Source of the DNA: a virus
Taxonomy: Duplodnaviria > Caudoviricetes
DNA: 57,698 nucleotides
Direction: 5' to 3' (one strand)
IMG/VR virus record: IMGVR_UViG_3300018063_000014
Span: 1-57,698 of that record
Shown here: in pieces, positions 1 through 57,290 of the stretch
Position numbering within the stretch: the first letter of the stretch is position 1
How the letters are laid out: each line of letters begins with the position of its first letter
Notes under the pieces: generated by a model
What the model was told of the DNA's origin: nothing
What the model saw: only the letters and a program-made list of their open reading frames with translations
The model's database searches: none
Translations under genes and position numbers: made by a program

Positions 1-570
1 AATTTCGCCGTTAGGCTCACCGCTGTTATAAAAAACATAAGCCCCTTGATGCCCTGCTCCTTTAAACGGCCCGGTCCACCATCCTGTACCGATTGCTACT
101 TGCTGGAAACCGCCGCTACCGTTCTGGAAACAAGTTGACCAAGTTCCGCCAATAGGCAAACAGGAAATAAGCCATGTACCACCGAGGGCGTATCGGCGAA
201 CGTATAGAGTCCCGGTGACTGGATTGACCGTATTATGATCATCGCCATGACTCGGGGTAGTGAACCCGCTTTGAAGCTCTGTCCAAGTATTAGTCGATTC
301 GGTATAGGTGACGTGTGTTGGCCCGGCTGGAACCTGATTATGGTCTTGCCCTGTAAAGTGAAAAATGCCCCGGTTATAATCCCAAGCTCCAGACATAGAA
401 AATGGAAGACGGTTCCCGGTTGATGGTCCAACGGCGAGTACGGGGCCAATGTTGGTTGTCGTAAACGATGCCCATGTACCGACACTCATCACTGTTGCAG
501 TCGTCTCAAGAACAGAGGCTCCCAAAACTACTGAAGGACATAAAAGCAGCAAGATCAACCAAGCAATCAT
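1..570 (-). CDS. Partial secreted tail-region protein (3' end outside window), possibly beta-propeller-like
   Basis: Translated by hand: ATG at 570 overlaps the upstream stop (ATGA); open for 190 codons to the edge; starts MIAWLILLLLCPSVVLGAS (signal-peptide-like). Not in the ORF track. Confidence 0.75.
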   Translation of the reverse strand, partial: MIAWLILLLLCPSVVLGASVLETTATVMSVGTWASFTTTNIGPVLAVGPSTGNRLPFSMSGAWDYNRGIFHFTGQDHNQVPAGPTHVTYTESTNTWTELQSGFTTPSHGDDHNTVNPVTGTLYVRRYALGGTWLISCLPIGGTWSTCFQNGSGGFQQVAIGTGWWTGPFKGAGHQGAYVFYNSGEPNGEI

Positions 571-884
571 CGAAACTCATCCCCTACCGGAAGCCCTAGC
601 GCCCGCTGGCATATTGGGCTGGTGTAGCCCGAACATGTCCCGGAATTGCAAGCCCTGATACGATAACAATACTGCTGTCCGGCGGTAAGATTGGTGTCCG
701 TGTAACTCGTCACGTTCGCCGCAGTCTGGACTATTTCAGCAAAGCTACCACCAGGATCGGCTCCGCGCTCGATACGAAAATCGGTCTCATCGCTGGAATT
801 GTCAGCCCAAGTCAAATGCAAGACGGCGGCGGAGCAGATGCCGGGAATAAGAAGAAATCCAAGTATGAGAAAGAATCGTTTCAT
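567..884 (-). CDS. Signal-peptide fibronectin type III domain protein
   Basis: MKRFFLILGFLLIPGICSA then LTWADNSSDETDFRIER...YTDTNL...YCYRIRACN (FN3 W/Y pattern); start reassigned to 884 by ATGA overlap. Confidence 0.8.
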   Translation of the reverse strand: MKRFFLILGFLLIPGICSAAVLHLTWADNSSDETDFRIERGADPGGSFAEIVQTAANVTSYTDTNLTAGQQYCYRIRACNSGTCSGYTSPICQRALGLPVGDEFR

Positions 885-2037: not shown

Positions 2038-4581
2038 TTATTTCCCCGCTCCGGTCAGCAACACGCTCGCACCGTCGGGACGAGTTACTACAGGCGGGGT
2101 TGTTCCAGCATTTAACTCAAACATTACGCCCTTGCCGGTGTCGTCGGTCCCGCCAACCACGTCGAAGGTTTTCGATGTAACGGTAACGGGACTCGCTCCA
2201 TTTATTGCATGATTCCAAACCAGGCCAACAGTGCCAGCGCCCGCATCGTGATCCGGCTCTCCAATTTCAATCCAGGTCAACGAGTCGCCTGTCAGCGTAG
2301 TAACTGAAGTCCAAGCACGGCGCTTCATCCCAACTACAAGGACAACGTTGTTCGCTGCAAGGGACAATCCGGTAATTGGTCCAATGTCGTTGCCAGTAAT
2401 ATTGAGGCTTGGCGTTGTAACCTCTGATATAGGCGTTGTCCCGCTTACACCGCGATAGGCTGCAAGCTGCGTGACGATCTCACCGTTGTTAGAGCCTATG
2501 GTCCAGGTCGGTGCTACGCTACATGACGGATAGAAGCAATACCATAACCCGAGCATCCGGCCAGTATCCTGAGTCGGGGTGAGTATCGCTGTCCAGCCCG
2601 CACTGATTGAAGCCGTGAAATTGGTATCACGACCCGCCAGCCCGGCAATAATAATGTCGTCCGTTGCGAGCCCTGCTGGCAATCCGGGCGCAGGGCTAGA
2701 ATTGTCTACAATGTTTCCCGCCGTTCCCGCCGCGACAAAAGTGATCGCGCCACCAGTGCCAACTTGAACAGAGCAAGTTTGGTCCGTGATGGACAACATT
2801 TTTTGTTTAAAACTGAATGCACTAGGCGCATTGTCCGTCAATGAGCCTGTTGCTGAATTGTAGGAGTCGAGACAAGCGTTTCCAGCGGCAAAAGCATTAG
2901 TCAGGTTGATTGTAAGAATGCCGCCGCCTTCTGTTACCGACGTTACAGGATTATCGACGCCAGCCTTTTTGACTGACCAACCCGTAGTAAAATTGCTAGC
3001 GAGTAGGCCAGGGTAGCGATTGTTCTCGGGAGTGCAAATCAGTTGAAGTGCGGAAACGATTCCGACGACGCAGTTATTTGCTGGAACTATCGACGCCTCG
3101 TAAGCCCCAATCGCACAAGCCGGAGCGTTGCAGCCTACACCGGAAACCGCTGTGCCGCTATTTTCAAACGTAGAAACCGTGTGAGTTAAGTCGCCCGTTG
3201 ATGGAGAAGTCAAAAGCGGATCGGTGTTTAGGGTGCTACCAAAAAGCCCCGAGACCGATTGGCAAGACGCAAGAGTCCGGTTAGTAGTATCACCCCAACG
3301 ACAAACATCAGTCGAACCCTGCTCTAAAAGATTGTTGTGGCTAATGACATGAGCGCCTTGAGTAATGAAAGTCGCGGTCCCCTCAAACGGGACAATGCCA
3401 CCGCTCTCAGTGTGACAAATATTGTTCTGAAAAACAGCGCGAGGTCCGCGAAAAGCATGAAAACATCGCTCTTTTACTCGAACAATGGTGTTGTTAAAAA
3501 ACTTTGGATCGTTGGGATCGCCGGTGCTTGGGGAGCCTAATCGAATGCCCTTTCGCCCAACGTCATAGACGAGATTATTTCTTACAGTCCAATTATGACA
3601 CTGACTCTCAATAAATATTCCGGCTGAATCTGAGTTGACTGTTGCAAAAGTTGGATAATCAATATTGTGAACACGGTTGTTCTCTATGATGCCGTTCTCG
3701 GCTCCGGTGTCACAATATAAACCAACAAATAGATCGTCATCTGTGCCAACAAGACTATCGTTGTCGCACGCTACGCCGTTGATACCGGAACCGTTTACTT
3801 CGTTATTGCGGATAATCGTTCCGCTGCTGTCCTGCGCATCTTTGATAACCTGTATGCCGCGTCTTCCGTCGCTGAAAAGCCCACACCGCATAGAGGAAAT
3901 GGTGTTATTTTCGATCAGTACGTTTAACCCTTCGGAAATCCGGATTATACTATGGGAATTGTTGGTAAAAGCGTTGCTAGAGATTGTCGTTGTAATCGTT
4001 TTGGTTGCCGTTCCGCCGCTTGTGACCCCATTAGTCCGAATTACATTGGTTCCACTAGTATTACTTCCGGTTCCCCCCCAATCGTCGAAACTGTTTCCGG
4101 TGATGGTAATGCCGATCATATTGGCCGTCACCGCCGAGAGTAGAATCGCGGCATCGCTCGTCTGTACTCCGGTTCCATCAAATAGAAGATTGCTTATCGT
4201 GACATGCGAGGCGTCGGTTATTTCAATCGAAGCCGTGCTGTTGGACGAAGCCCCGGAGTTGCGCAGTATTGGAGTCTCGCCGGTGAAGGGCCTAATGGTG
4301 ATGGGACTGCCAACCGATCCGCTTACCGTCAGATTTGAGACTGCGGTGTAAGTGCCGGCGCGGATGATGATTTCATCGTCGGCCCCAAGTGTGGCGTCGT
4401 CAAAAGCACCTTGGATGGTCTGATAAGCATCGCCATCGCTGCCGGTGCAGTTTCGGTTGGTGATAGAGTAATTCCCGGTTGTGCAGTTTGCTCCAAGGGT
4501 TCCGTCAACATGGATATCCTCGGCCCTAACTTGAAAGGCGAGCAAGAGAACAAAAAGAAGTGAGAGTAAGAGGCGGTTCAT
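2038..4581 (-). CDS. Signal-peptide parallel beta-helix (pectate-lyase-like) tailspike/depolymerase candidate
   Basis: MNRLLLSLLFVLLLAFQVRA; YQTIQGAFD...IIIRAGTY...GSVGSPITIRPF start motif; many I-x-N-N beta-helix rungs; C-terminal beta domains. Confidence 0.8.
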   Translation of the reverse strand: MNRLLLSLLFVLLLAFQVRAEDIHVDGTLGANCTTGNYSITNRNCTGSDGDAYQTIQGAFDDATLGADDEIIIRAGTYTAVSNLTVSGSVGSPITIRPFTGETPILRNSGASSNSTASIEITDASHVTISNLLFDGTGVQTSDAAILLSAVTANMIGITITGNSFDDWGGTGSNTSGTNVIRTNGVTSGGTATKTITTTISSNAFTNNSHSIIRISEGLNVLIENNTISSMRCGLFSDGRRGIQVIKDAQDSSGTIIRNNEVNGSGINGVACDNDSLVGTDDDLFVGLYCDTGAENGIIENNRVHNIDYPTFATVNSDSAGIFIESQCHNWTVRNNLVYDVGRKGIRLGSPSTGDPNDPKFFNNTIVRVKERCFHAFRGPRAVFQNNICHTESGGIVPFEGTATFITQGAHVISHNNLLEQGSTDVCRWGDTTNRTLASCQSVSGLFGSTLNTDPLLTSPSTGDLTHTVSTFENSGTAVSGVGCNAPACAIGAYEASIVPANNCVVGIVSALQLICTPENNRYPGLLASNFTTGWSVKKAGVDNPVTSVTEGGGILTINLTNAFAAGNACLDSYNSATGSLTDNAPSAFSFKQKMLSITDQTCSVQVGTGGAITFVAAGTAGNIVDNSSPAPGLPAGLATDDIIIAGLAGRDTNFTASISAGWTAILTPTQDTGRMLGLWYCFYPSCSVAPTWTIGSNNGEIVTQLAAYRGVSGTTPISEVTTPSLNITGNDIGPITGLSLAANNVVLVVGMKRRAWTSVTTLTGDSLTWIEIGEPDHDAGAGTVGLVWNHAINGASPVTVTSKTFDVVGGTDDTGKGVMFELNAGTTPPVVTRPDGASVLLTGAGK

Positions 4582-10630: not shown

Positions 10631-11065
10631 CTAAGGCCCTTTCATAATCCAAGCCGATTTATAGAACGCCGGTTCATGATTTGCAGAATTATGCGCACCA
10701 TGAGAATCAACCGTAATGACGCCGTGAGTGTGCCCTGTCACGGCATTGACTAGACCGATAAGTAGATTAAAAACACCAGTTGTATGATCCCCTGGACCTA
10801 CAACGACATGATCCGGGTGAGTCGTATGTGTATGAGTCACCCCGCCTCCCGTTGCGCCGGGATTTTCAGCGGCCCCTACGTTTTTGATAAATTTATCTCT
10901 CAAGTCTGGCGTTCCGTTCGTGCCGTCGCATAAAAACCAACGACTCGGAATCTGATTAAGGGGTTTTCCCCAAGCTACTATTGTTCCTTCGGGTACAGCC
11001 GACATCGATAATAAATCTAACTTTCGGGACAGTTGCTGCGCATTATAAAATCTGGGTCTACTCAC
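10631..11065 (-). CDS. Tail collar domain protein
   Basis: VPEGTIVAW...IPSRWFLCDGTNGTPDLRDKFI and His-x-His repeats. Confidence 0.85.
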   Translation of the reverse strand: MSRPRFYNAQQLSRKLDLLSMSAVPEGTIVAWGKPLNQIPSRWFLCDGTNGTPDLRDKFIKNVGAAENPGATGGGVTHTHTTHPDHVVVGPGDHTTGVFNLLIGLVNAVTGHTHGVITVDSHGAHNSANHEPAFYKSAWIMKGP

Positions 11066-11316
11066 TTATGGTGCCCGTCTTTCTTTTCGGTCTTCACTTT
11101 CTCTTGTTCGGCTTCTACCTTTGCCTGCAAAACATCCCGCTCTTTTTTCATTTCGATGTATTCGATTTCCACAAGCCGCATTTTAAGATTCAGATTTTCA
11201 AGGCGGAGCTTGTCCACTTCGCTTTGAGCGAAAGCGGGACTCATCAAAAAGCCAATCAAGGCCAAGAGCGACAAAGTGACTATAGTAAAGCAAATATTTT
11301 CAACTACAGATTTCAT
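11062..11316 (-). CDS. Small signal/TM plus coiled-coil protein
   Basis: MKSVVENICFTIVTLSLLALIGFLMSPAFA then charged heptads; TGATG overlap with the tail-fibre stop. Confidence 0.6.
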   Translation of the reverse strand: MKSVVENICFTIVTLSLLALIGFLMSPAFAQSEVDKLRLENLNLKMRLVEIEYIEMKKERDVLQAKVEAEQEKVKTEKKDGHHK

Positions 11317-12896
11317 CAGCAACTCCCGCCCGTCAAAAGCCCATGAGAAAAAATGAGCGTGCAATCGGAGGCCCCGCCTGCGGCTCGCACGGTTTTAGTC
11401 GCATTGATCGTCGCTGCCGCGTTAATGCTTAACGTGCCCCTGAATTGAAGCACGCTCCCTGTGTTCCCGATGTTCACCTGGTCGCTCCCTGTGTCCGCGA
11501 TGACTATATCCGCGCTGTCACCGCTATTACGGCTCTTGATCGTTACCCCGGTTGCCAATCTGATATCACCCGTCGCCGCTGGGATGACTCCGATAGAAAG
11601 CCCAGAACCTGGCGTTGTTAGGGCAAGGCGGAGCGCATTGCTTTCAATTTGCCCGCTGGTGGCCCCGACGCGAATATAGGAACTATTGGCATCGTTCCAC
11701 CGGATTTTACCTGTCGTTGCCCCAGCTTTAAGAATCAGTGCCGCATCGCTGATCGTCGTCGGAAAAGTAGCGAAATCCAAGCCCGCTGCCCAATCGCCGC
11801 CGCCTAAGCTGTACCCCACGGCAAGCCCCGCTGTTCCTGTCTGAGTTGCTGAAAAGGAGTACGCCTGAAGGGCTGGCGTTGTGGCGATAGTGGTTACTTG
11901 CCCCAAGATCGCGTTGATATTGGCATCGGAAGTCCCTACCGCCGCCGCGTGAGCATGGATACCGCGTAGGATGTGGCTGAACGTTCCCGCCGTTGCCGTG
12001 GTATCGACGTTGACCAGGATGCCCCGTACCCGATGATCACCATCGCCGTTATCGCTGTCCGTGAGACGAACATAGATTCCAGTCAGATTGCGCTGCGCCG
12101 CGCCTGAGGTTGTCGTTGCTAGCGTACCTTCGATCAGCATCCCATCGACGGCCTTGGTATCGGTAATCGACGTGACGGCACCTAAGTTGATGTATTGGCT
12201 CGCGCTGTGAGCGTTGGAGAGTAAATCATAGCTCGGCGTCGGCGTGGTGATCGTCAGTCTATTATTCGCGAACTTGAAAGCCTCGGAGCCCACAAGCGGA
12301 GTAGTTGTGCCAGCGCCAAAAGCCACTTGCCCGCTCGACAATCCCGTGCCGACAATGTTTACTAGAGTGACATTTTCCAACCCTGTGAGGTCGGACTTCC
12401 AGCGAACAAAGTTACCCGATACCGGATCGGGGATCGTCAAAGCCGAATAGGTAGATTTCTCTCCAAGCAAAAGAGTCCGCTGAGCGCGCTCGGCGAGCAT
12501 TTGCCCGACCATCGTCTGCTTGTCGAAATCGCGCATGACGGTGAGCGCGTTATAGGCAGAATTGGCCGTGTAGTTGGTAAGCTGAGAGACCGGCTGATTG
12601 CGCATTAGCGTCACAGGCAAACCGTTCGCGGGTGCGGTGACAAAAGTAACGGTTCCGCCGTTGGATGCGCCTACCCCTGACACCGAGTAATGAGTCGATA
12701 GAGTTTGAACAACGCCGTTGACAAGAACCTTGATGTCGGCTGACGAGAGAATTTTGAAATTGTAGGTGTAGGCCGTCGCGCTGCCATTGCCGACGTAGCG
12801 ATCTTCGCTGCCATCGAAAACCACCGTGGCGGGTGCCAAAGTAGGAAAAAGCGGGATGCAAAAACTTAGGAACAACGCCAAGAATAGATTTCTCAT
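11316..12896 (-). CDS. Tail fibre with T7 gp17-like N-terminal adaptor domain, preceded by a signal-peptide-like segment
   Basis: YVGNGSATAYTYNFKIL...HYSVSGVG...GGTVTFVTAPA...LMRNQP...DFDKQTM is the podovirus fibre adaptor; G/T/A-rich distal part. Confidence 0.85.
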   Translation of the reverse strand: MRNLFLALFLSFCIPLFPTLAPATVVFDGSEDRYVGNGSATAYTYNFKILSSADIKVLVNGVVQTLSTHYSVSGVGASNGGTVTFVTAPANGLPVTLMRNQPVSQLTNYTANSAYNALTVMRDFDKQTMVGQMLAERAQRTLLLGEKSTYSALTIPDPVSGNFVRWKSDLTGLENVTLVNIVGTGLSSGQVAFGAGTTTPLVGSEAFKFANNRLTITTPTPSYDLLSNAHSASQYINLGAVTSITDTKAVDGMLIEGTLATTTSGAAQRNLTGIYVRLTDSDNGDGDHRVRGILVNVDTTATAGTFSHILRGIHAHAAAVGTSDANINAILGQVTTIATTPALQAYSFSATQTGTAGLAVGYSLGGGDWAAGLDFATFPTTISDAALILKAGATTGKIRWNDANSSYIRVGATSGQIESNALRLALTTPGSGLSIGVIPAATGDIRLATGVTIKSRNSGDSADIVIADTGSDQVNIGNTGSVLQFRGTLSINAAATINATKTVRAAGGASDCTLIFSHGLLTGGSC

Positions 12897-12898
12897 GG

Positions 12899-13423
12899 TT
12901 ACGTCCAACTCGATTCGAGATCCTTCATGCTGGGGAATTTATATGTCCCGGTGCCCCTTGTTTTCTTGTACCAGTCGCCCATCACCGACGAGCCGATTTG
13001 CGCCGCGCCACCAATCGCCATACCCGGAATCGCTCGCCGCTGAAAATGCGCGCCTAATCTCGCTTGGTACGCACGCGATTTTCCAGAATACGTCTCTAGT
13101 TCTTCGTTCATGCCCTGCTCAAACGCATTCGCTAGTTCGATTTCCAGGGGACTCCCGGAAAACGGATCGACACCGGCCCCAGCGGCTACGGCTCTGTTGC
13201 GCCCGATAACTTGTCGATATCGCCTTTGGCTCGCTTCGCGCGTCAGCCGAGTCTCTTCATTGATAAGAGCGGCTTGCTCTTCGCCCAGTTTCGCCTGCGC
13301 GTCGGCTTGCTGGATCGCACTACCAACCTGCGCGGCTGTACCAACAGCCTGTAGCGTTGTGGCGCCATACTCACTGGCCCATTCCCCCAAGCTGGTAAGA
13401 AACGACGCGCCGTAGTCACCCAT
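12899..13423 (-). CDS. Internal virion protein (T7 gp14-like)
   Basis: A/Q/G-rich, RAVAAGAGVD..SGSPLEI motif, position after the gp13-like gene. Confidence 0.75.
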   Translation of the reverse strand: MGDYGASFLTSLGEWASEYGATTLQAVGTAAQVGSAIQQADAQAKLGEEQAALINEETRLTREASQRRYRQVIGRNRAVAAGAGVDPFSGSPLEIELANAFEQGMNEELETYSGKSRAYQARLGAHFQRRAIPGMAIGGAAQIGSSVMGDWYKKTRGTGTYKFPSMKDLESSWT

Positions 13424-13802
13424 TCTTTGCCCACCCGTAACGAGCTATCGGTAGTCGTTCAAATCCCAACATTTCCAGCCACCGGCAGAACTTGGGATCG
13501 TCGCTCGTCTCGGCTTGTACTATTTCAGCCTTGATCAAATCCCTGATTATCGGGTATCGCCATTTGATTTCGCGTGTCAGTTTGCGCATCAAAAGCTTGC
13601 TTTGCCTAACCTCGGGCATCATCACAACCCATGCAAAGAACTCACGCCCCGTTACGCGGCCTAAGCCAGCGGCGGCAACGGGTTCGTCATTTAGCAAGTA
13701 GACGTAGCCCGGACCCGACAGCCGCCGTGAGTTCAACAGGCTGTCCATCTGCCCCATGCGCTCAAGTTGGTAAACGCTCAGCGGCGCGACCACGGTGTTC
13801 AA
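13416..13802 (-). CDS. GNAT-fold gp13-like virion assembly protein
   Basis: PVAAAG...AW...RWLEMLGF motif directly after the nozzle gene. Confidence 0.7.
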   Translation of the reverse strand: MNTVVAPLSVYQLERMGQMDSLLNSRRLSGPGYVYLLNDEPVAAAGLGRVTGREFFAWVVMMPEVRQSKLLMRKLTREIKWRYPIIRDLIKAEIVQAETSDDPKFCRWLEMLGFERLPIARYGWAKNG

Positions 13803-16324
13803 CTTGCCGCGTCTCCAAACGCTACTTGACCGGAAATCCCCAAAATGGTCATAGGGTAGGGTCGATCCTGTAGAATCGTGAATGCGCCGTCATATGGGTC
13901 ATCTGTTTCAAGGTTCTCCATCTTGAGAAGGCCCGTATACATTCGTGAGCCACCTTCCCGCTTCTTTAGAGGTTTGCCGTCAATTTTGCCGCCGATGGTA
14001 TTTTTTACCCTGACATGAACATACGGCCATGAGCGTTTGAGCCCTTCCGTTACTTCGCCAGCGACAACGGGCCGGAGTGGTGTAAGGGTCGAATCGTAGT
14101 GCAAGCCGACCTCATAGATCGTATCGGCGTCGGGTACTTCCCCGGCGTCGGCATCGAGCGTTATGACGCCACCGGCTGACACAGTTTTTTGTGCTATCGC
14201 GGTATCACCGATAATGACATCAACGACCGTGTTGGGTAGATGCGTGATGCCGGTAATCGTGGTCGCGCCCGCAAGAAGCGTTCCCACCTTGGCGCAATCG
14301 GTTTGCAGACCGGCCCATTTCACATCGGAGAGTACGCCACTGGCGTTTTTGCTCTGTGTTACTCTAGTCTGTAAAGCGGGAGAATCGTCTTCGAAGTATT
14401 CCCAAAACCGTTTTACAACCGCGTTGATCGTCCGCTTCACCACGACATAAACCGTAAGGCGTTTCCCGTCCTCGTGCGGCACAACAGCCACGCTTTCAAT
14501 CTCATCGCCTGCTCTAGTTTTCGTTCGTGACCACGATTTTACTTCTTCGCGCGGCTTGAAGGTCAAGTTGGCGAGTTGCCCATTCTCCAGGGGAGTAAAG
14601 ACGAGCGAGAAGGGCTTTTTCGCATAGGCGGGTCGATGCACCGCGAATCCCATGTCTCCGATATGCCGGGAGAACAAAGTTAAGTCGGTTGAGACGAACG
14701 CGCTTGCGTCTGGTGAGTCGTTCAGCGAATAGGCCATCTGCACAACGTCTTGACCGAATCTCTGAAGCAGCAAAATCGCGTTGTCCACGACAAGCGGTTG
14801 AACGTGCGCGGACCCTACTTGATCAATGGGAGCGACGAACGGGGTCTCGCTGCCACCGATAGGCTTATCGACTCCCTGCCCGCGCGCGGCATGCTCTTTT
14901 TTCGCATCGCCGATATAAAGAGAAATGAGTGAGACTAGCCATTGAATCGGGTTCTGCTGCCCGCCTTGAATCGTGTACTCGTAGGCGTTGTCCGCGATAG
15001 AGCCAACAGCAAAATTGTATATGTTGTCGATATCTGATCCGTTGAAAGTGGTGGGCTGACTCGGGGGGCCGCCAAACACAAGTCTACCGCCATGAATCGT
15101 CAATGTACGAGGTCTTCCCCTCGTTGCGCTCCAAGACGATTCCTCCAATCGCCACGATCCCTCGGGCGCGGCAGCCGGATTAGCGTCGGGCGATTCATCG
15201 AGCACGCTCAAAATGGTTCCCGTCATGCTGGTTGCACTGTTCCAGGCGGTAATTTTTATTAGGCCGCCATAGACTTTGATAAATTTGCTTACATAGGCAG
15301 CTCTGAACGCATTCACCCCGGCCACTATGGCAACCTGGGTTCCTACGGGCTCTTTTCTGTCCACGTCTAGGGTGGTCCGAGGCGACAAATGCAGCAGCCA
15401 TGCCCCGGCGGCGAATCCGGCGGTCCAATCATACGCAACCGGCGCGGCCTGATCGACGCTGAAAGCGGCATCGATGGTGAAAGTATCGGCTCCGCCTACT
15501 GCGGTTATCTGGCGAATTTCTGTCGCCTGAGCCCCGGCTGTGAGAATCACGAATTGATTGACGCTGCGCCCGTGGCCGGTGCTCGTGACCGCCGTGCCTA
15601 CGCTCGTCAAGGTCTTGCCGCTCGCCGTAATGGTCGCCGCGAAGGCGTCTAAAACATTGACCGTAACTTGTCGCGCCGAATCTAGCGCCGTAATTATTCC
15701 CCGGCCAGTTCCCGCGATGAGCTGCCGACCCACATCGCCGGCAAGAAATTGATCCGTACCGACTCTGAATTTAATAGCTGCCCCAGTGTTCGCGTTCGGT
15801 GCCCCTATCACCCCAAGGCTTTCATCCGCCTCGAAAGACGGCGGAGGATCTGCGTTGAAATTGCCGATTGTCCAATTATTGTCCGCTACGCGCGCGAGTT
15901 TTTGAATATCTAGCGCCGAGTTTAGACTTGTCATGAAAAGAAAATCCGATGCCTGTTCGTAGTGGATATCCCGCAAGTCTGCGGTGGCGTAGGGCTGGAC
16001 GAGTTCATAAGGAACGCCCGGCGAACTTTCGATATAGGCCCGATTCTTGATAAATCGAATCTTCCCGTCGCCGAACAAAAGCACGAAGGCGTCATCGACT
16101 GAACGTTCAAACGGGATCATCATCGTAAATTCGTTCGAGTCTTGAACCTCACCGCCAAACATCAATCCTGGTCTCCTGGTGCCACCGCCTTCGGGCAGAC
16201 CCCACCAGTTTTCAAATACGAGAATTCCGTTGGCCCTTTTTGCAACGTCGGGTCGAGCCTCGACATAATCGCTCACCTCGCCTTGCGAAAAGTTGGTCTG
16301 ATAGTTAGGAGCCTTTTTCGACAC
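13799..16324 (-). CDS. Tail tubular protein B (nozzle)
   Basis: QTNFSQGEVS...EGGGTRRPG N-terminus; QDRPYPMTILGI C-terminus; 841 aa. Confidence 0.9.
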   Translation of the reverse strand: MSKKAPNYQTNFSQGEVSDYVEARPDVAKRANGILVFENWWGLPEGGGTRRPGLMFGGEVQDSNEFTMMIPFERSVDDAFVLLFGDGKIRFIKNRAYIESSPGVPYELVQPYATADLRDIHYEQASDFLFMTSLNSALDIQKLARVADNNWTIGNFNADPPPSFEADESLGVIGAPNANTGAAIKFRVGTDQFLAGDVGRQLIAGTGRGIITALDSARQVTVNVLDAFAATITASGKTLTSVGTAVTSTGHGRSVNQFVILTAGAQATEIRQITAVGGADTFTIDAAFSVDQAAPVAYDWTAGFAAGAWLLHLSPRTTLDVDRKEPVGTQVAIVAGVNAFRAAYVSKFIKVYGGLIKITAWNSATSMTGTILSVLDESPDANPAAAPEGSWRLEESSWSATRGRPRTLTIHGGRLVFGGPPSQPTTFNGSDIDNIYNFAVGSIADNAYEYTIQGGQQNPIQWLVSLISLYIGDAKKEHAARGQGVDKPIGGSETPFVAPIDQVGSAHVQPLVVDNAILLLQRFGQDVVQMAYSLNDSPDASAFVSTDLTLFSRHIGDMGFAVHRPAYAKKPFSLVFTPLENGQLANLTFKPREEVKSWSRTKTRAGDEIESVAVVPHEDGKRLTVYVVVKRTINAVVKRFWEYFEDDSPALQTRVTQSKNASGVLSDVKWAGLQTDCAKVGTLLAGATTITGITHLPNTVVDVIIGDTAIAQKTVSAGGVITLDADAGEVPDADTIYEVGLHYDSTLTPLRPVVAGEVTEGLKRSWPYVHVRVKNTIGGKIDGKPLKKREGGSRMYTGLLKMENLETDDPYDGAFTILQDRPYPMTILGISGQVAFGDAAS

Positions 16325-16909
16325 TTATTCTTCCCGTATATCGTCGGTCAATTCAGTGGCGGTCATCTGCTCCTGCGAGCCCTCTTGCCCATCGACCGCC
16401 TTCGCGTCCAATAATTGCATCTGATAGAGCTTGTAGAGATCGCTGGACTTCGCCACGTCGGTATGGAATGCGGGCGCGAAACGGACAGCAAGATAAGTCA
16501 CGAAGGCTTGGTAGAATGCCCCATCCCAGATGTTCGGATCGATCTCCCATTTGATGCCCTGAATGATGACCGATGACTCGTCGCTCATGAGATTCCGGCC
16601 CTCAAGTTCCCAGATTGACCTGTCGCTGTTGTTCACTCGCACGACCCGGAAACAGTCAGCCGGTAAGGGGTACTGATAGGTCCAATCTGAGATTGGCGCG
16701 GCAGCACTCGCCACAAGCTCGACGCGAAACTTGGCGAAGTTCCAGATATGATCGCGGAGCATGGTTCGAAGAAGCGAGCCGAAATATTGTTTCGCCTTAA
16801 CAGCTACAGGGTCGGCGGTGTCGTCCAGGTCGGTTAAAAAATCCTTGCCAAGCTGGCCCAACGCTTCATTGGCCACATCGACCGGCGAAACATTGAAAGT
16901 AATTGCCAA
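16325..16909 (-). CDS. Tail tubular protein A (adaptor)
   Basis: VANEALGQLG...HIWNFAKFRVEL...WTYQYPLPADCFRV...AKAVDGQEG. Confidence 0.9.
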   Translation of the reverse strand: MAITFNVSPVDVANEALGQLGKDFLTDLDDTADPVAVKAKQYFGSLLRTMLRDHIWNFAKFRVELVASAAAPISDWTYQYPLPADCFRVVRVNNSDRSIWELEGRNLMSDESSVIIQGIKWEIDPNIWDGAFYQAFVTYLAVRFAPAFHTDVAKSSDLYKLYQMQLLDAKAVDGQEGSQEQMTATELTDDIREE

Positions 16910-18784: not shown

Positions 18785-19687
18785 TTACACGGACTCGTCG
18801 ATGTCTACCTGGATTACGCAAGTATCGTCGATCCGCACCGATCCGCCGCTCAACTTGACCATCGCGAAGGTGTTGTTCCAGTGGCTCGGGTCTTTCCCGA
18901 GTTCCACCTGCTTGACCAAGCCCAACGCCATACCCACTCCCATTTTCTGAATGCGCAGACAGGAGCGGATGTTGCCGGTCTTGAAAAGCTTCACAGACTC
19001 GCGCCATTTCGCGCCGTACCAAGTGGCGTCCTGCGGGAAGCCGCCCGATTGAAGCGCGTTAATGCTCGAATAGTCCGAGCTGGTCGCCGTGGGATCGCTC
19101 AGTAGTTGCTCCATCCCCTTCGGGCTGTGGAAAAAATACTGGTCTTCGATGAGCACCGAGTTGTCGCCCATGATCCGCTTGCTCTGGCGAATCTTCGCCA
19201 TCGTGAGCCCAGACCCACCGTTAGCGACCTGAGAGCCGGCATCGATGGTCGTCTGACTGGACGTATTCGCACCCTCGTCAACGGTCTCAGCAGTTCCGAG
19301 CGCCCCGCCGATATTGGTCGTGCCTTGCGCCAATACGAGGTCGTCTTTCTTTCGCTCCAAGCCGTAGCCGAGAATTTGCGAAAGCTCTGAGGTGGGATCG
19401 GTTAGGGTTTTCAGTTCGTCGAATTCGTCGATAAGAACGGCGAGACCGAAGTCGTAGAGCTGCGCCCGCCTTTTGCTCTGCGGAGGATTCGCATAGACCG
19501 TGACGGCATCGGAGGTCGTGATAGCCATCATGTCCTGCGAGCCGATACGGTTGAAGGGTTCCGTTTTCCCCTTGCAGTTAGTTTTTAGACGGACGGCTCC
19601 GTCTACCATCGCCCTGCGCTGTTGCGAGAGCTGATGGACTGTTTCACTGACCCCATGAATAAACCAAGATTCTGTTTCTAGTGCCAT
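18785..19687 (-). CDS. Major capsid protein (BPP-1-like podovirus type)
   Basis: QLSQQRRAMV...FNRIG...SKRR...LIDEFDELKTLTDPTS...GSVRIDDTCVIQVDIDE. Confidence 0.9.
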   Translation of the reverse strand: MALETESWFIHGVSETVHQLSQQRRAMVDGAVRLKTNCKGKTEPFNRIGSQDMMAITTSDAVTVYANPPQSKRRAQLYDFGLAVLIDEFDELKTLTDPTSELSQILGYGLERKKDDLVLAQGTTNIGGALGTAETVDEGANTSSQTTIDAGSQVANGGSGLTMAKIRQSKRIMGDNSVLIEDQYFFHSPKGMEQLLSDPTATSSDYSSINALQSGGFPQDATWYGAKWRESVKLFKTGNIRSCLRIQKMGVGMALGLVKQVELGKDPSHWNNTFAMVKLSGGSVRIDDTCVIQVDIDESV

Positions 19688-30359: not shown

Positions 30360-30977
30360 TCACGGTTCTTCGTCGTCGTCTTCCGGTTCTTCCGGCATCG
30401 GTTGATTAGGGTCAAACCCGATGGCGTCGAAGTGACGCTGGTTGGCGTCTTCCATCTGTTTCAATAACTCGTCAAGGTCGAATTTTTCGCCTCTTATTTC
30501 TTTTGTATTGTCTTTACTGTCTTTGGAGTGCGTCTCCACTGACGCAGGTTTTGGTACTGGATTGACGCAGGTTGATGCACCGATTGACGCAGGTTGGTCT
30601 GTGGGGATATCCAACGACCTGCGTCTCTGCTGACGCAGGCTATCGTGCGTCTTGGGAGACGCAGGTTGATTAAGCCAACGTGAGTAATCCTTCTGGATTC
30701 CGTAAGCGACAGACTGAGCGCTCAATCGCTGCACGATTATCAAATTGCGACGCCACAAGCGCTTGACGGTTCGCTGCACATTGCGCCGATCAAGCTCGGT
30801 CCGTGTCACGAACTGAGAGCCGGCGATGGTATCATCCCTCTTGTTGTATCCGTAGGTCATACGGGCGACAGTCCAGAAGACTCGCGACTCATAGGGCGAT
30901 AGATCAATCTTGCACAGCGCCTCAAGAAGCTCATTGGCTACGCGCGTGTATCCTTCCTCAATTTGCGGTCGTGACAT
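30360..30977 (-). CDS. Lambda O-like replication initiator
   Basis: PQIEEGYTRVANELLEAL...RVFWTVARMTYGYNKRDDTIAGSQF. Confidence 0.85.
   Translation of the reverse strand: MSRPQIEEGYTRVANELLEALCKIDLSPYESRVFWTVARMTYGYNKRDDTIAGSQFVTRTELDRRNVQRTVKRLWRRNLIIVQRLSAQSVAYGIQKDYSRWLNQPASPKTHDSLRQQRRRSLDIPTDQPASIGASTCVNPVPKPASVETHSKDSKDNTKEIRGEKFDLDELLKQMEDANQRHFDAIGFDPNQPMPEEPEDDDEEP
30529..30667. repeat. Iteron-like repeats inside the O-like gene
   Basis: GACGCAGG at 30541, 30564, 30586, 30632, 30658; three are part of TGCGTC-N6-GACGCA palindromes. Confidence 0.75.
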
Positions 30978-35238: not shown

Positions 35239-36447
35239 TTAGCCATGAGAAGCCTCCTTCTTTGTCACCACTGCATTCAGCGCCGCTTCCCCGAACTTGG
35301 AAGTATCGCCGAGCCAGCGCGCGTAGTTTTCGTAAATCACCGCAGGCGAATTGCCCGCATAGTCTGCGATGGCCTTGGGGTGCTCGCCGTGGAGCAGCAT
35401 GACCGATATCCATGTGTGCCGCGTGTTGTAGAATGGCCGATGCCGGATCTTCAGCGCGGTGAGTGCCGGCCAGAAATAGCTCTGTGCAAAGACCGCTTGC
35501 CCGATCGGCTCCCCTTTTTTGGTGGTAAAGATGTAATCGTCGGGGCCAGCCCTCAAGGGTCGTATCTCTTCAAACCGTTCCATGACAGGCGGGAAAAGCT
35601 TGATCGTTCTATTGCTTTTCGACGTTTTGGTTTCGCCGTCTTCGCCCTCCGTGCGCGAACTGGAAATTGTGAGACTTCCTGAACGTTGGTCGTAATCCGA
35701 AAATCGCCGCGCGGTAAGTTCAGAAGGTCTCGCACCTGTCCAGAACAAACTGAACATAAACGCACTACCCCGTGCCCATGTTTGCCGGTATTTTTTGTCA
35801 AAGTACGCGAGGATTTCATCTCGTTCCTCTTCTGTAAATGGGTCTGGCTGCTCACGCGGGCCTGGTGGCCACCACTTTGGCGGTAGTGATAGAAAGGGAT
35901 TCTTCTCGACCAATCCCTCAGCCTGCGCGTCTCTAAACATGGCGCGAAGGCTGGAATTGATGACATTCCGTGCCGTCCGCATTTGCACCGGCTCCCGACC
36001 TTCCCTGCCCTCGATCAAGGCGGCTCGAAGCTCCCGGATATCCGCTACGGTGTAGGTATTCAGTAAACGGTCTCCGTGCATCGATAAAATGTGATAGGTG
36101 AAGTGCGATTGCCACTTCAGCCAATAACTTCGGCGCACGAACGGCGGCATTTTGTCCTTTTTCGTTGCATCGTATCGCTGGCGGATGGTTTGTGGAACCA
36201 TCTTCGAGTTTTGCTGTGCAAACAGTTTGGCGCGGTTGCCGGCCGGAAAGTGGCGCAAATAGTCGAACGTGCCGGCTTTCATCTCCGCCGTGATCTTCTC
36301 GGCGAAGGCTTCCGCTTCCTTGCGGTTTGCCAGGGTGTCCTTCCATTTCGTGCCTTCCCACGATTCACCGTTGGGGAACGAGGGATGGTAAAGGCGAATC
36401 ACGAGGGCTTTATGCCTTGATACGGATATGCGTGCACTCATGCCCAC
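35239..36447 (-). CDS. int: Tyrosine integrase with N-terminal arm-binding domain
   Basis: TFDYLRHFP arm domain; TGARPSEL, KTSKS, YNTRHT, AGNS..VIYENY catalytic motifs. Confidence 0.93.
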   Translation of the reverse strand: MGMSARISVSRHKALVIRLYHPSFPNGESWEGTKWKDTLANRKEAEAFAEKITAEMKAGTFDYLRHFPAGNRAKLFAQQNSKMVPQTIRQRYDATKKDKMPPFVRRSYWLKWQSHFTYHILSMHGDRLLNTYTVADIRELRAALIEGREGREPVQMRTARNVINSSLRAMFRDAQAEGLVEKNPFLSLPPKWWPPGPREQPDPFTEEERDEILAYFDKKYRQTWARGSAFMFSLFWTGARPSELTARRFSDYDQRSGSLTISSSRTEGEDGETKTSKSNRTIKLFPPVMERFEEIRPLRAGPDDYIFTTKKGEPIGQAVFAQSYFWPALTALKIRHRPFYNTRHTWISVMLLHGEHPKAIADYAGNSPAVIYENYARWLGDTSKFGEAALNAVVTKKEASHG

Positions 36448-49126: not shown

Positions 49127-50263
49127 CTACTTCTTCTCCAGCAACTTCCGCCGCGCGTGGAACGCCTTGACGACACTAGGCCCCCTGCCCTCTTCTATCG
49201 AGCGGAAGTTTTTGTAGACTTCGTTGTCTTTCGAGTCGAGCTGTTCAAGCGTAGCCGTTTCGATCCAGGCGATGAGCTTGTCGGCGATGGGGGTTTCGGA
49301 GGTTTCGTCGCCAGCATCTTCAGCGCCTTCAGTTTTCCCCTGTTGAGAAACCTCAGATCCTTCAGGATTTGCTGACGGTCCATCGGTCGCCACGGCTTTC
49401 GTCCCATCCGCCTTCTCCTTCTTCGGCCTACCTACCTTCGGTTTTTCCGCCTGCTTTCCTTCTGCATTTGACGGCGGGTTTTCGCTCGGGCCTTTTCCCT
49501 CGGCGTTCGCCTTCTCGGCGGGTTCTGTGGTTCCCCTAGTAGCTGGTGAAACCACTGTGTCGGGAACTTTGGGATCATCGGGCTTCTCCTTCAGGGGCTT
49601 CGGTAGGGAGATGGGCTTCTCGGCAACCGGAGTAATGTCGCGCGGCTCTAACTCTTCGGCGAGTTCGGTTATCTCCAAACCGATCACGGCTTCGGGGATC
49701 GCATCGTTGCCGGCCAAGTTGCGGGCCATCCATTGAAGCATTCGACCGGGCCGCTTGAACCACGGACTCTGTTCGCGCTTCTCCTGAGTCGCACCCTTGC
49801 CGCCCCACACGCCGGACTTCTCGGCCATCTCCTTAGTGAATCGCGCCGTCACGGGTTTCTTGGAACCCCTACGCTTAATCGTGCATTCGCCATAACCCTT
49901 CTCTAGGGCTTCATGTTCGGCTAATTCTTCGGTGTCCTCGCACAGCGGATGGCTCTTAATGAGGGACCAATAGCCGTTTCCCCAAATGCGCGGTCGCCCG
50001 TTGATCACGGCGATGTAACGGAGCGAAGCCATCGGCGGCAGTCCGACTTCATGCCCGGTCTGCCACGCGGCGAGCACCGCTCCGGGCTTGTCGCGAAAGG
50101 CGTCTGGTACGAATTCGGTCGCACAGATGAGCTTGGCGAAGTCGGCCATCTCCTGCCATGTGCGCGGCTTGAATGCCATCGCGTCGTCTTTAACCGCGAT
50201 GGTCCATTGTCTCTTATCGGTTGTCGTGGGAACCTGCGCTGATTGCGTCTGTTCTTCTGCCAT
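49127..50263 (-). CDS. RecT-like single-strand annealing protein
   Basis: FVPDAFRDKPG...GHEVGLPPM...IAVINGRP...PWFKRPGRML; acidic disordered tail. Confidence 0.8.
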   Translation of the reverse strand: MAEEQTQSAQVPTTTDKRQWTIAVKDDAMAFKPRTWQEMADFAKLICATEFVPDAFRDKPGAVLAAWQTGHEVGLPPMASLRYIAVINGRPRIWGNGYWSLIKSHPLCEDTEELAEHEALEKGYGECTIKRRGSKKPVTARFTKEMAEKSGVWGGKGATQEKREQSPWFKRPGRMLQWMARNLAGNDAIPEAVIGLEITELAEELEPRDITPVAEKPISLPKPLKEKPDDPKVPDTVVSPATRGTTEPAEKANAEGKGPSENPPSNAEGKQAEKPKVGRPKKEKADGTKAVATDGPSANPEGSEVSQQGKTEGAEDAGDETSETPIADKLIAWIETATLEQLDSKDNEVYKNFRSIEEGRGPSVVKAFHARRKLLEKK

Positions 50264-53000: not shown

Positions 53001-53075
53001 TGGTGGAGTAGCCGAGATTCCAACTCGGAACGCTCGGGTGCAGACCGAGCATGATAGCAGTTTCACCACTACCCC
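53001..53075 (-). tRNA. tRNA-Ala(UGC), atypical
   Basis: Full cloverleaf, G3:U70, A73, encoded CCA; C33, C19/G56. Confidence 0.85.
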
Positions 53076-53076
53076 A

Positions 53077-53152
53077 TGGTCTGAGTGGCAGGTCTCGAAC
53101 CTGCATGATCGTGATCCCAAGTCACGAGGACAGCCAATTATCCCACACTCAG
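53077..53152 (-). tRNA. tRNA-Pro(UGG)
   Basis: CTGAGTG/CACTCAG acceptor, CTTGGGA loop, TTCGA, CCA. Confidence 0.92.
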
Positions 53153-53154
53153 AA

Positions 53155-53231
53155 TGGTGCCGCCGGTAGGCATCGAACCCACAACCTTCGCATTACAGGT
53201 GCGTTGCTCTGCCAAATTGAGCTACAGCGGC
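53155..53231 (-). tRNA. tRNA-Thr(UGU)
   Basis: GCC/GGC acceptor end, loop CCTGTAA, TTCGA, CCA. Confidence 0.9.
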
Positions 53232-53232
53232 A

Positions 53233-53307
53233 TGGGGTGCGCGATGGGATTCGAACCCATTCTTAGTGAGCCACAATCACTCGTGCTGCCAGTTACACTA
53301 CGCTCAC
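53233..53307 (-). tRNA. tRNA-His(GUG)
   Basis: Loop TTGTGGC, C73, TTCGAAT, CCA; one A-G mismatch in the acceptor stem. Confidence 0.9.
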
Positions 53308-53453: not shown

Positions 53454-53873
53454 TCAAGGCGCAACCGCTAAATTTCCCGGCGCTGCCGGTACAACCACGG
53501 GCGGGACGGGGCGGGGAATACGCAAACAAGCCTGATTCGAGTTTCCCGATTCTTGAAGCGCGCCGCTAACCGCAAAGTTATAAGCCGAAACGAGATAGCA
53601 ATACTCGTTATCAAAGTTGATATCGGCAACCGCCATGTTATCGACGTAGGTAGCCTGATCGACTTGGGAGAGTTGAATCAACTGCGCGAATGCCCCAGAG
53701 TTAACCACGATTGTCGTTCCCGGCTGGAATTGAGTTAATTTCCGACGAACGATAAAGCCCACCTCGTTGTTACTGTTGTCCTGCCACGTCAGGGTTGCGG
53801 CATCCGCCTCCGAGACTGACAACAAGAACGCGAGGACGGCGCCCCATAGCGCAAGTTTCGTGTTTTTCTTCAT
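53454..53873 (-). CDS. Signal-peptide fibronectin type III domain protein
   Basis: MKKNTKLALWGAVLAFLLSVSEADA, LTWQDNSNNEVGF, YCYLVSAYN; AAGGAG RBS. Confidence 0.85.
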   Translation of the reverse strand: MKKNTKLALWGAVLAFLLSVSEADAATLTWQDNSNNEVGFIVRRKLTQFQPGTTIVVNSGAFAQLIQLSQVDQATYVDNMAVADINFDNEYCYLVSAYNFAVSGALQESGNSNQACLRIPRPVPPVVVPAAPGNLAVAP

Positions 53874-56571: not shown

Positions 56572-56961
56572 TTAAAAGGACGACTCTTTGGTCTGCCCCT
56601 CGACGGTCTTGCGTAGCACCGCCATAATCCGGTCAAGCTCGCTATTCGCTTCCTTGATGTACCGATCGTAGGCTTCGAAGTCGCCCACTAGAAGCGCGGG
56701 GCCGAGGGCGGCTTGATATGAGTAGAGCAGGTCGTCGGAATCGCGGAGTTCCGCCATATTGGCGGGATTAATGGCGACTTCGGCATCGGCAAGCCACCCG
56801 AACACCTTCTTGAATTTTTGATCACGGTCCCAAAGCTCGCGCCATGGCTCAAGTCGGGAAACCATGTCGGCACGGGTCGGAGTCTTGACAGCCGTCGTGG
56901 CACAACCTAGAGAGGAAAGAAACAACGCGAGAATGGTAGCTCTAAGTATGTCTGTCATCAT
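56572..56961 (-). CDS. Lipoprotein
   Basis: Hydrophobic stretch ending SLGC lipobox. Confidence 0.65.
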   Translation of the reverse strand: MMTDILRATILALFLSSLGCATTAVKTPTRADMVSRLEPWRELWDRDQKFKKVFGWLADAEVAINPANMAELRDSDDLLYSYQAALGPALLVGDFEAYDRYIKEANSELDRIMAVLRKTVEGQTKESSF

Positions 56962-57290
56962 CGCCTTGCTCGCTTCGCCAACTCAATCATCACGTCCATA
57001 ATGACCTCACCGCAGGCCGCTACGATTTCCTTGCGTCTCTCTGGTCCATAGAGCCTGATGATCCGAGCCACTTCAACAATCGACGCCACGCCCTTTACGT
57101 CCTCGTCGAGAATACCGGCCGCGTTTATCTCAGCTTCGATGTATATCCAGCACCGCTCTCCCGCTGGGTCTTTGTACTTCCGCGCGATGGCTTCCGCTTG
57201 ACGCAAATCAAGCAGGGCTTTTTCTTGAAAAAGGGCGCAGCCGCCGACGAGCAGGCACAGCGCGAGAACGATTAAATTTCTCATTGGCAT
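56958..57290 (-). CDS. Lipoprotein
   Basis: MRNLIVLALCLLVGGC lipobox; AAGGA RBS. Confidence 0.7.
   Translation of the reverse strand: MPMRNLIVLALCLLVGGCALFQEKALLDLRQAEAIARKYKDPAGERCWIYIEAEINAAGILDEDVKGVASIVEVARIIRLYGPERRKEIVAACGEVIMDVMIELAKRARR

What the first reader, a model, noticed from the sequence alone, without database searches (positions are those of the whole stretch)
12700..12896. T7-type tail-fibre adaptor domain directly preceded by a signal-peptide-like leader
Seen: MRNLFLALFLSFCIPLFPTLAPA is followed immediately by TVVFDGSEDRYVGNGS, the point where this adaptor family normally begins at Met1. Cleavage after A-P-A would give the canonical N-terminus. The C-terminus ends in a Cys pair (DCTLIF...GGSC). 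This is the strongest single sign that a true virion-docking protein is exported.
Basis: partly seen in the sequence, partly recalled or inferred. Interest (0 to 1): 0.72.

Follow-up and report, generated by a model that had tools for sequence, protein, structure and literature searches.

The report
Phage tail fibre with export signal
A phage's only tail fibre, the part that normally snaps onto the tail inside the cell, is made with a classical secretion leader, which suggests that this group of phages matures its fibres outside the cytoplasm.

Summary
On the minus strand, ATG 12896 opens a 526-aa gene. Residues 1-23 have the parts of a Sec signal peptide, and residue 24 starts a T7-type tail-fibre adaptor domain (PHROG E 2.4e-28; AF2 pLDDT 91.7; Foldseek top hits are virion-docked fibre N-domains, including T7 gp17).

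The leader is not chance or a mis-called start:
- 64 of 177 relatives examined carry leaders of 18-35 aa, and 61 of the 64 have a signal-peptidase-type site within one residue of the domain boundary.
- Three relatives with DNA have AGGAGG or AAGGAG before the leader ATG and no start codon at the boundary.
- Leader forms have twice the cysteine of canonical forms, in even numbers (48 even, 9 odd against 34 even, 41 odd; Fisher p 4.6e-6). This is the pattern expected of disulfide-bonded exported proteins.

The adaptor domain is as conserved as in leaderless relatives and is the only one in this 97%-complete temperate podovirus.

Best reading: the fibre is exported, cleaved to the canonical "TV..." N-terminus, oxidised in the periplasm, and docked on the tail at lysis. 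Export is well supported by sequence. Docking after export is inferred. My seven literature searches found no description of this.

The parts
12828..12896 (-). Leader, residues 1-23. It has the three parts of a Sec (signal peptidase I) signal peptide: n-region M-R-N, h-region L4-L20, c-region A21-P22-A23.
   Evidence: Equivalent leaders occur in 64 relatives. AF2 models residues 2-12 as a helix outside the domain.
12897..12901 (-). Junction with the upstream gene: its TAA stop (12901-12899), then 2 nt (CC), then the fibre ATG. There is no Shine-Dalgarno, so translational coupling is likely.
12447..12827 (-). T7-type tail-fibre adaptor (tail-docking) domain, residues 24-150.
   Evidence: phrog_1640 E 2.4e-28. 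PF03906 E 2.8e-4, below the Pfam cut-off. AF2 pLDDT 91.7. Foldseek: 8ck1_B TM 0.86 with rmsd 1.9 A, and T7 gp17 entries 7ey9, 7boz, 7ey7.
11319..12446 (-). Shaft and distal (receptor-binding) part, residues 151-526. No family was found for it.
   Evidence: Searches give no hit beyond about residue 190. The full-length AF2 model is unusable (pLDDT 34.8). The middle part is not homologous among close relatives, while both ends are.
11319..11363 (-). C-terminal C512-x13-C526 pair, a candidate disulfide loop. These are the only two cysteines of the mature protein.
   Evidence: Conserved in P0003 and P0004.
11062..11316 (-). Coupled downstream gene. Its ATG overlaps the fibre stop (TGATG). It encodes an 83-aa protein with a signal-peptide or TM-like N-terminus (a possible A-F-A site) and a coiled coil.
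   Evidence: No PHROG or Pfam hit.
10631..11065 (-). Next coupled gene (GTGA overlap): a 144-aa tail-collar-like protein without a leader.
   Evidence: (phrog_5795, 8469, 1800).
12899..13423 (-). Upstream gene: internal virion protein (T7 gp14-like class).
   Evidence: phrog_418 E 2.9e-11.
13799..16324 (-). Tail tubular protein B (nozzle), with no leader.
   Evidence: phrog_376 E 5.4e-111. Annotated tail tubular B in the nearest phages.
16325..16909 (-). Tail tubular protein A (the adaptor on which T7-type fibres dock), with no leader.
   Evidence: phrog_394 E 4.8e-39.

Best explanation
The gene encodes the phage's single T7-type tail fibre as a precursor with a cleavable Sec signal peptide.

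Shown by sequence and comparison: the leader is translated, it is conserved as a signal peptide, and it ends at an A-x-A site exactly at the start of the adaptor domain.

Inferred step 1: the host Sec system exports the unfolded chain. Signal peptidase I cuts after Ala23. The new N-terminus, 'TV...', is the same as that of ordinary fibres ('MTV...') after methionine removal.

Inferred step 2: the fibre trimerises in the oxidising periplasm and forms its C512-C526 disulfide.

Inferred step 3, the weakest: capsids with tails are built in the cytoplasm and meet the fibres only when the inner membrane is breached at lysis, or in the lysate. The unchanged adaptor domain then docks on the tail tubular proteins.

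Likely benefit: disulfide-stabilised receptor-binding domains, and fibres kept away from cytoplasmic particles until release.
For: 1. Leader anatomy and position.

2. Recurrence. 64 of 177 relatives held have leaders of 18-35 aa. The n-region net charge is +1 to +3 in 64 of 64. Position -1 is A, G or S in 55 of 64, and +1 is T in 43 of 64. The (-3,-1) rule is met within one residue of the domain boundary in 61 of 64. The leader sequences themselves have diverged while the pattern is kept.

3. Start site. L024, L189 and L217 have AGGAGG or AAGGAG upstream of the leader ATG, and ACG-GTA, ACG-GTC or ACC-GTC (not start codons) at +1/+2.

4. Cysteines. In the mature parts of leader forms, 7 have zero, 48 an even number and 9 an odd number, at 1.02% Cys. 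Canonical forms give 34, 34 and 41 at 0.52%. Fisher p 4.6e-6; binomial p 1.5e-7 against 0.49. The 32 canonical forms inside the same clade give 12, 9 and 11 (counted). All 5 Sec-leader proteins of the window that contain cysteine have even mature counts: 2, 18, 6, 4 and 2.

5. The adaptor is still under the ancestral constraint. Mean pairwise identity is 0.489 in leader forms against 0.449 and 0.435 in canonical forms. Per-column entropies correlate at Spearman 0.84. The fold matches fibre N-domains solved in place on virions.

6. It is the only adaptor-domain gene in a 97%-complete genome. In L217 the leader fibre sits directly after the gp16-like protein, as gp17 does in T7 (gene order recalled).
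Against: - There is no experiment and no SignalP run. My rule also passes 10 of 91 capsid homologues.
- In the window itself the ATG has no Shine-Dalgarno, and a GTG does sit at Val25.
- Proline at -2 (A-P-A) is unusual. P0034 and P0037 share it.
- The tail tubular proteins have no leader, so fibre and tail would be made in different compartments. I know of no described route by which a tailed phage joins them.
- 9 of 57 cysteine-bearing leader forms have odd counts.
- The same phage carries an 847-aa secreted beta-helix protein whose 18 homologues all have leaders. The phage therefore also exports proteins that may never be virion parts.
- The host is unknown. Leader forms were absent from 36 of 36 species-genome loci and from the 40 listed rows of 112 deposited-phage records.
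Confidence: 0.5

Rival explanations
1. The protein is exported but is not a virion part. It acts in the envelope of the infected cell as a soluble or surface-bound receptor binder or depolymerase. It would mask or destroy receptors, excluding superinfection and keeping progeny off cell debris, much as phage T5's Llp lipoprotein does by other means.
For: The leader and the even-cysteine signature fit this reading equally well. 11 of 64 leader forms carry pectate-lyase, beta-helix, NosD or depolymerase domains. The phage exports other proteins. This reading also removes the compartment problem.
Against: The adaptor domain shows no relaxation of constraint. It is the sole adaptor-domain gene in the genome, so the phage would lack a T7-type fibre. 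The gene sits inside the tail and internal-protein operon and is translationally coupled on both sides. Leader and leaderless forms are interspersed on the domain tree.
Confidence: 0.2
2. The gene gives two products. The long form is exported. A short form, started at or next to the domain boundary, stays in the cytoplasm and builds virions.
For: The window has GTG at Val25. 4 of 64 leader forms have Met at +1, 1 has Met at +2, and L217 has an in-frame ATG at -2.
Against: No start codon lies at +1/+2 in 3 of the 4 genes with DNA, and no Shine-Dalgarno precedes the boundary in any of the four. +1 is Thr in 43 of 64. A cytoplasmic form would not explain the even, doubled cysteine content.
Confidence: 0.12
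3. The leader is not cleaved. It acts as a membrane anchor that holds the fibres at the inner membrane until assembly or lysis.
For: The h-region is fairly long (17 residues) and the c-region has Pro at -2. The downstream coupled protein also has a TM-like N-terminus.
Against: The (-3,-1) small-residue rule is conserved exactly at the domain boundary in 61 of 64. An anchor would not need it. A 23-aa hydrophobic extension would sit at the N-terminus of the domain that docks on the tail in solved virions.
Confidence: 0.1
4. The start is mis-called. Translation begins at GTG (Val25), and the leader is an untranslated accident of the reading frame.
For: There is no Shine-Dalgarno before the ATG in the window, and a GTG is present at residue 25.
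Against: 64 diverged relatives keep a signal-peptide pattern in this stretch. Three have a strong Shine-Dalgarno at the leader ATG and no alternative start. There is no Shine-Dalgarno before the GTG either, and the ATG lies 2 nt after the upstream stop.
Confidence: 0.03

Closest known systems
T7 gp17-type tail fibres and tailspikes (T7 gp17; Cobetia phage Carin-1 Dpo31/Dpo36, PDB 8ck1, 28lx)
   Same: Same N-terminal adaptor fold: Foldseek TM 0.86 to 8ck1_B, with hits to T7 entries 7ey9, 7boz and 7ey7, and a profile hit to Dpo31 at E 5e-34. Same modular plan of a conserved adaptor plus a variable distal part. Same place in the tail gene module.
   Different: Known members start at Met1 directly before 'TV/TI...' and are taken to assemble in the cytoplasm. 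This one has a 23-aa Sec-type leader and a cysteine pattern typical of exported proteins.
Filamentous-phage pIII/pVIII (recalled, not examined here)
   Same: Virion proteins, including the receptor binder, are made with Sec signal peptides. pIII is disulfide-bonded in the periplasm.
   Different: Inoviruses assemble by extrusion through the envelope. No tailed phage is known to me to route a virion protein this way. There is no homology.
Bdellovibrio bacteriovorus MAT fibres (PMC10769870, passages read)
   Same: Signal peptide, then a conserved beta-rich N-terminal domain of about 130 aa, then a variable phage-like trimeric fibre with swappable tips.
   Different: These are chromosomal genes of a predatory bacterium, displayed on its own surface. 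The paper states that their N-domain has no PDB homologue. Homology to the T7-type adaptor was not tested here.
Exported phage proteins of the lysis and exclusion kind: signal-peptide or SAR endolysins, T5 Llp, Cor (recalled)
   Same: Phage late or moron proteins that use the host Sec or Lol pathways to act in the envelope.
   Different: They are not structural and carry no tail-docking domain.
Bacterial exported tailspike-like enzymes such as Pantoea WceF (PMC7949094, search listing and abstract start only)
   Same: A tailspike-like fold working outside the cytoplasm.
   Different: A host gene outside a phage structural module. I did not check whether it has an adaptor domain.

Membership tests
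T7-type tail-fibre N-terminal adaptor domain (Pfam PF03906; PHROG tail-fibre families) | Sequence match to the family profiles | tested here: met
   phrog_1640 E 2.4e-28 and 11 further PHROG tail or tail-fibre families. PF03906 scores only E 2.8e-4, 21 bits against a 25.2-bit cut-off. 31 of 64 leader relatives match PF03906 at E <= 1e-3.
T7-type tail-fibre N-terminal adaptor domain | Fold of fibre N-domains solved in place on virions | tested here: met
   AF2 model with pLDDT 91.7. Foldseek: 8ck1_B E 7e-9, TM 0.86, rmsd 1.9 A. Also LME-1, P-SCSP1u, T7 (7ey9, 7boz, 7ey7, 9jz0), PhiM1 and Kp7.
T7-type tail-fibre N-terminal adaptor domain | Domain begins at the protein's first residues (Met1) | tested here: not met
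   The domain begins at residue 24. 109 of 177 relatives begin at Met1, as do 79 of 80 IMG/VR loci and 36 of 36 genome loci.
T7-type tail-fibre N-terminal adaptor domain | Gene lies in the tail module beside the tail tubular and internal virion protein genes | tested here: met
   for the window. for L217.
T7-type tail-fibre N-terminal adaptor domain | Physically docks on tail tubular proteins A and B | not testable with these tools
   Only indirect evidence: the constraint on the domain is unchanged.
Sec-type signal peptide (signal peptidase I) | Positive n-region, uncharged hydrophobic h-region of about 10-17 residues, and small residues at -3 and -1 with no Pro at +1 | tested here: met
   R2; L4-L20; A21-P22-A23 followed by T24. 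My own rule, not SignalP. Control rates: 0 of 109 canonical forms and 10 of 91 capsid homologues.
Sec-type signal peptide | Pattern kept while the sequence drifts among homologues | tested here: met
   64 of 64 leader forms pass. Position -1 is A in 49 and G or S in 6. Leader lengths are 18-35 aa.
Sec-type signal peptide | The mature protein behaves as a resident of an oxidising compartment (even cysteine counts) | tested here: met
   48 even against 9 odd in leader forms, and 34 against 41 in canonical forms; Fisher p 4.6e-6. P0001 itself has 2 mature cysteines.
Sec-type signal peptide | Export and cleavage demonstrated | not testable with these tools
   Needs reporter fusions and N-terminal mapping.
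Lipoprotein signal peptide (signal peptidase II) | Lipobox L-[AS]-[GA]-C (consensus recalled) at the end of the h-region | tested here: not met
   The only Cys in the leader is in L-S-F-C (Phe at -1). 41 of 64 leaders have no Cys at all.
Tat signal peptide | Twin-arginine motif in the n-region | tested here: not met
   M-R-N-L has a single Arg.
Bdellovibrio MAT fibre family | Homology of the post-leader N-domain of about 130 aa | not tested
   No MAT sequence was at hand. Only the architecture was compared, from passages of PMC10769870.

The most novel reading that the evidence does not exclude
A widespread but uncultured group of temperate podoviruses assembles its virions in two compartments. 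Heads and tails are built in the cytoplasm. The receptor-binding fibres are Sec-exported, cut by the host signal peptidase to the exact canonical N-terminus, and disulfide-bonded by the host periplasmic machinery. They snap onto the tail only when lysis breaches the inner membrane. Gain and loss of the leader would then be a recurrent evolutionary switch that opens cysteine-rich folds to receptor-binding domains. It could also be the route by which phage fibres become cell-surface adhesins.
Probability: 0.45. Interest if true: 0.9.

Novelty: new variant of a known kind. Interest (0 to 1): 0.8.

Why it matters
Morphogenesis of tailed phages is taught as a wholly cytoplasmic process. A tail-docking fibre that is routinely exported would be an exception with a clear mechanism, and it can be tested.

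It also has practical consequences:
- Such receptor-binding proteins would need periplasmic, oxidising expression to fold.
- Annotation pipelines that trim or distrust the leader would mis-call them.
- Host-range engineering could use disulfide-rich binding domains.

It gives a plausible evolutionary bridge to secreted fibre adhesins such as the Bdellovibrio MAT proteins.

Tried and rejected
- **Full-length AF2 model of P0001** with a 6-row alignment: pLDDT 34.8, unusable. I therefore have no fold for the distal part and no geometry for the Cys pair.
- **Complex prediction**, tail tubular A with three copies of the mature adaptor: verdict 'no answer'. I draw no conclusion from it.
- **Host identification.** Cluster look-up gave no names. 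The capsid search gave one named MAG homologue at 54% identity. The Atlas gave only 'Viruses'.
- **More genomic contexts.** The single-protein scan of IMG/VR found nothing. The back-translated motif scan of IMG/VR gave 1 true locus among 99 stretches. The scan of JGI metagenomes gave 1 locus. The species-genome scan gave 36 loci, none with a leader.
- **Alignment A2** was too diverse for a locus scan.
- **Lipoprotein and Tat readings** of the leader: rejected on motif.
- **Literature.** Seven answered full-text searches returned no paper describing signal peptides on tail fibres of tailed phages; one more failed on a short term. Supplements were not consulted.

Full report
**What is there.** The window is a virus record of 57,698 bases, estimated 97% complete. 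Nearly all genes are on the minus strand. It has an integrase, a RecT-like protein and an O-like replication protein, so it is a temperate phage. Its portal, major capsid and T7-style tail tubular A and B genes mark it as a podovirus. The nearest deposited phages are only about 24-34% identical in tail tubular B.

The finding lies on the minus strand. ATG 12896-12894 opens a 526-aa frame ending at stop 11318-11316. The ATG lies 2 nt after the TAA of the upstream internal-virion-protein gene and has no Shine-Dalgarno. The stop overlaps the ATG of an 83-aa protein with a leader or TM segment and a coiled coil. That gene's stop in turn overlaps the GTG of a 144-aa tail-collar-like protein.

Residues 1-23 (MRNLFLALFLSFCIPLFPTLAPA) have a basic n-region, a 17-residue uncharged hydrophobic core, and A-P-A before Thr24.

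From residue 24 the protein is a tail-fibre adaptor domain:
- Twelve PHROG tail or tail-fibre families match, the best at E 2.4e-28. Their first profile positions fall on residues 24-28.
- Pfam PF03906 matches weakly, below its cut-off.
- A profile of relatives hits the solved Dpo31 tailspike of Cobetia phage Carin-1 at E 5e-34, aligning 'TV' to chain residue 2.
- An AF2 model of residues 1-170 (pLDDT 91.7) matches fibre N-domains solved on virions: Carin-1 8ck1_B (TM 0.86, rmsd 1.9 A), LME-1, P-SCSP1u, and T7 gp17 in 7ey9, 7boz and 7ey7.

C512 and C526 are the only mature cysteines. They are conserved in P0003 and P0004, although the middle of those proteins is unrelated.

**The leader is a conserved, translated feature.**
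- A full HMMER scan with residues 1-150 found 18,259 proteins at E <= 1e-3.
- I held 177 proteins: the best 150 from that scan plus the set. Of these, 64 have an 18-35 aa leader with a hydrophobic core, 109 start at Met1, and 4 are other. Because the query included the leader, this share is biased upward.
- In the 64, n-region charge is +1 to +3 in all. Position -1 is A in 49 and G or S in 6. +1 is T in 43, and +2 is V in 47.
- A (-3,-1) site lies within one residue of the domain boundary in 61.
- My rule passes 64 of 64 leader forms, 0 of 109 canonical forms and 10 of 91 capsid homologues. It is sensitive but not very specific.
- DNA is available for four leader genes. L024, L189 and L217 have AGGAGG or AAGGAG before the leader ATG and no start codon at +1/+2. 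Only the window has GTG at +2.

**Leader forms are rare in the curated collections.** They appear in 1 of 80 IMG/VR loci (L024) and 0 of 36 species-genome loci. None appears among the 40 listed rows of 112 deposited-phage records. Several sit on contigs of 42-62 kb, which is phage-sized.

**Independent sign of export.** Proteins that fold in an oxidising compartment tend to have even numbers of cysteines. This principle is recalled from the literature on disulfide formation and was not read here.

| Set | Zero Cys | Even | Odd | Cys content |
|---|---|---|---|---|
| Leader forms, mature part (n=64) | 7 | 48 | 9 | 1.02% |
| Canonical forms (n=109) | 34 | 34 | 41 | 0.52% |
| Canonical forms inside the leader clade (n=32) | 12 | 9 | 11 | not computed |

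- Fisher p is 4.6e-6. Binomial p is 1.5e-7 for leader forms and 0.49 for canonical forms. The third row was counted.
- In the window, all five Sec-leader proteins that contain cysteine have even mature counts: 2, 18, 6, 4 and 2.
- Caveats: the rows are related, and some may be fragments.

**It is still a tail-docking fibre.**
- On a tree of the adaptor domain, 63 of 64 leader forms fall in one clade of 95 rows, interspersed with 32 canonical forms. The tree needs 19 changes of state against 51 for shuffled labels. It is poorly resolved, so a single origin is not excluded.
- The domain is no less conserved in leader forms: mean identity 0.489 against 0.449 and 0.435.
- The same columns are conserved in both sets (Spearman 0.84).
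- It is the only adaptor-domain gene in the genome.
- In L217 the leader fibre directly follows the gp16-like protein, as gp17 does in T7 (gene order recalled).
- Distal parts vary from 160 to 1,723 aa. 11 of 64 have pectate-lyase, beta-helix, NosD or depolymerase domains. This is the usual pattern of virion receptor-binding proteins.

**Mechanism.** The most likely sequence is:
1. Sec export of the unfolded chain.
2. Cleavage after Ala23.
3. Trimerisation and disulfide formation in the periplasm.
4. Docking on tails once the inner membrane is breached at lysis.

Cleavage would yield 'TV...'. Canonical 'MTV...' fibres have the same N-terminus after methionine removal (established rule for a small second residue), and the solved Dpo31 chain aligns from residue 2. 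That fibres attach last, and that fibreless particles can be completed in vitro, is recalled for T4 and T7 and was not checked here.

Rival readings, scored separately, are:
- an exported but non-virion receptor blocker or enzyme;
- two products from two starts;
- an uncleaved membrane anchor;
- a mis-called start.

**Context that points the same way.**
- The phage encodes other leader proteins: an 847-aa beta-helix protein (all 18 homologues also have leaders), a 183-aa protein, two small fn3-like proteins, and two lipobox proteins.
- In the unrelated, AT-rich L024, the leader fibre is followed by two more leader proteins.

**Prior knowledge.** Seven answered full-text searches found no report of signal peptides on tail fibres of tailed phages. 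The nearest architecture in print is the Bdellovibrio MAT fibre family: a signal peptide, a conserved N-domain of about 130 aa, and a variable trimeric fibre (PMC10769870, passages read). Supplementary files were not seen.

**Verdict.** Export is well supported by three independent computational lines. Docking after export is inferred. The host is unknown.

Noticed in passing
window 2038-4581 (-): An 847-aa protein with a Sec-type leader, a right-handed beta-helix (PF13229) and 18 mature cysteines, at the end of the structural module. All 18 homologues found also begin with signal peptides, and many share a 'GNYSI.NR.CTG' motif. It may be a secreted polysaccharide enzyme or a second receptor-binding protein.
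   Followed up: partly
window 11062-11316 (-) and 10631-11065 (-): Two genes are translationally coupled to the fibre gene (TGATG and GTGA overlaps). The first encodes an 83-aa leader/TM plus coiled-coil protein with no family hit. The second encodes a 144-aa tail-collar-like protein without a leader. They may be a periplasmic fibre helper and a fibre tip partner.
   Followed up: partly
window 56572-57284 (-): Two adjacent, overlapping genes encode lipobox proteins (LVGG|C and LSSLG|C) at the early end of the genome. Their function is unknown. They do not form a classical spanin pair.
   Followed up: no
window 567-884 (-) and 53454-53873 (-): Two small leader proteins share an fn3-like 'LTW.DNS..E' motif. 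The first matches Pfam fn3 at 24.9 bits, just under the 25-bit cut-off. Their mature cysteine counts are 4 and 2.
   Followed up: no
window 53001-53307 (-): A cluster of four tRNA genes: Ala-TGC, Pro-TGG, Thr-TGT and His-GTG.
   Followed up: no
window 35239-36447 (-), 49127-50263 (-), 30360-30977 (-): Integrase, RecT-like annealing protein and O-like replication initiator. The phage is temperate, so prophage copies should exist in the unknown host.
   Followed up: no
L024:10001-15697 (+): In an unrelated, AT-rich IMG/VR contig, three consecutive genes after the large internal virion protein all start with signal peptides: a 911-aa adaptor fibre, a 148-aa protein, and a protein of at least 585 aa.
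   Followed up: partly
capsid gene, window 18785-19687 (-): Among 91 capsid homologues only one carries an organism label: a MAG labelled Calidithermus sp., at 54% identity. This is a weak lead to the host lineage. The 79%-identical capsid P0186 was seen on a 62,500-base contig, the same length as the contig on which the 1,365-aa leader fibre P0037 was seen.
   Followed up: no
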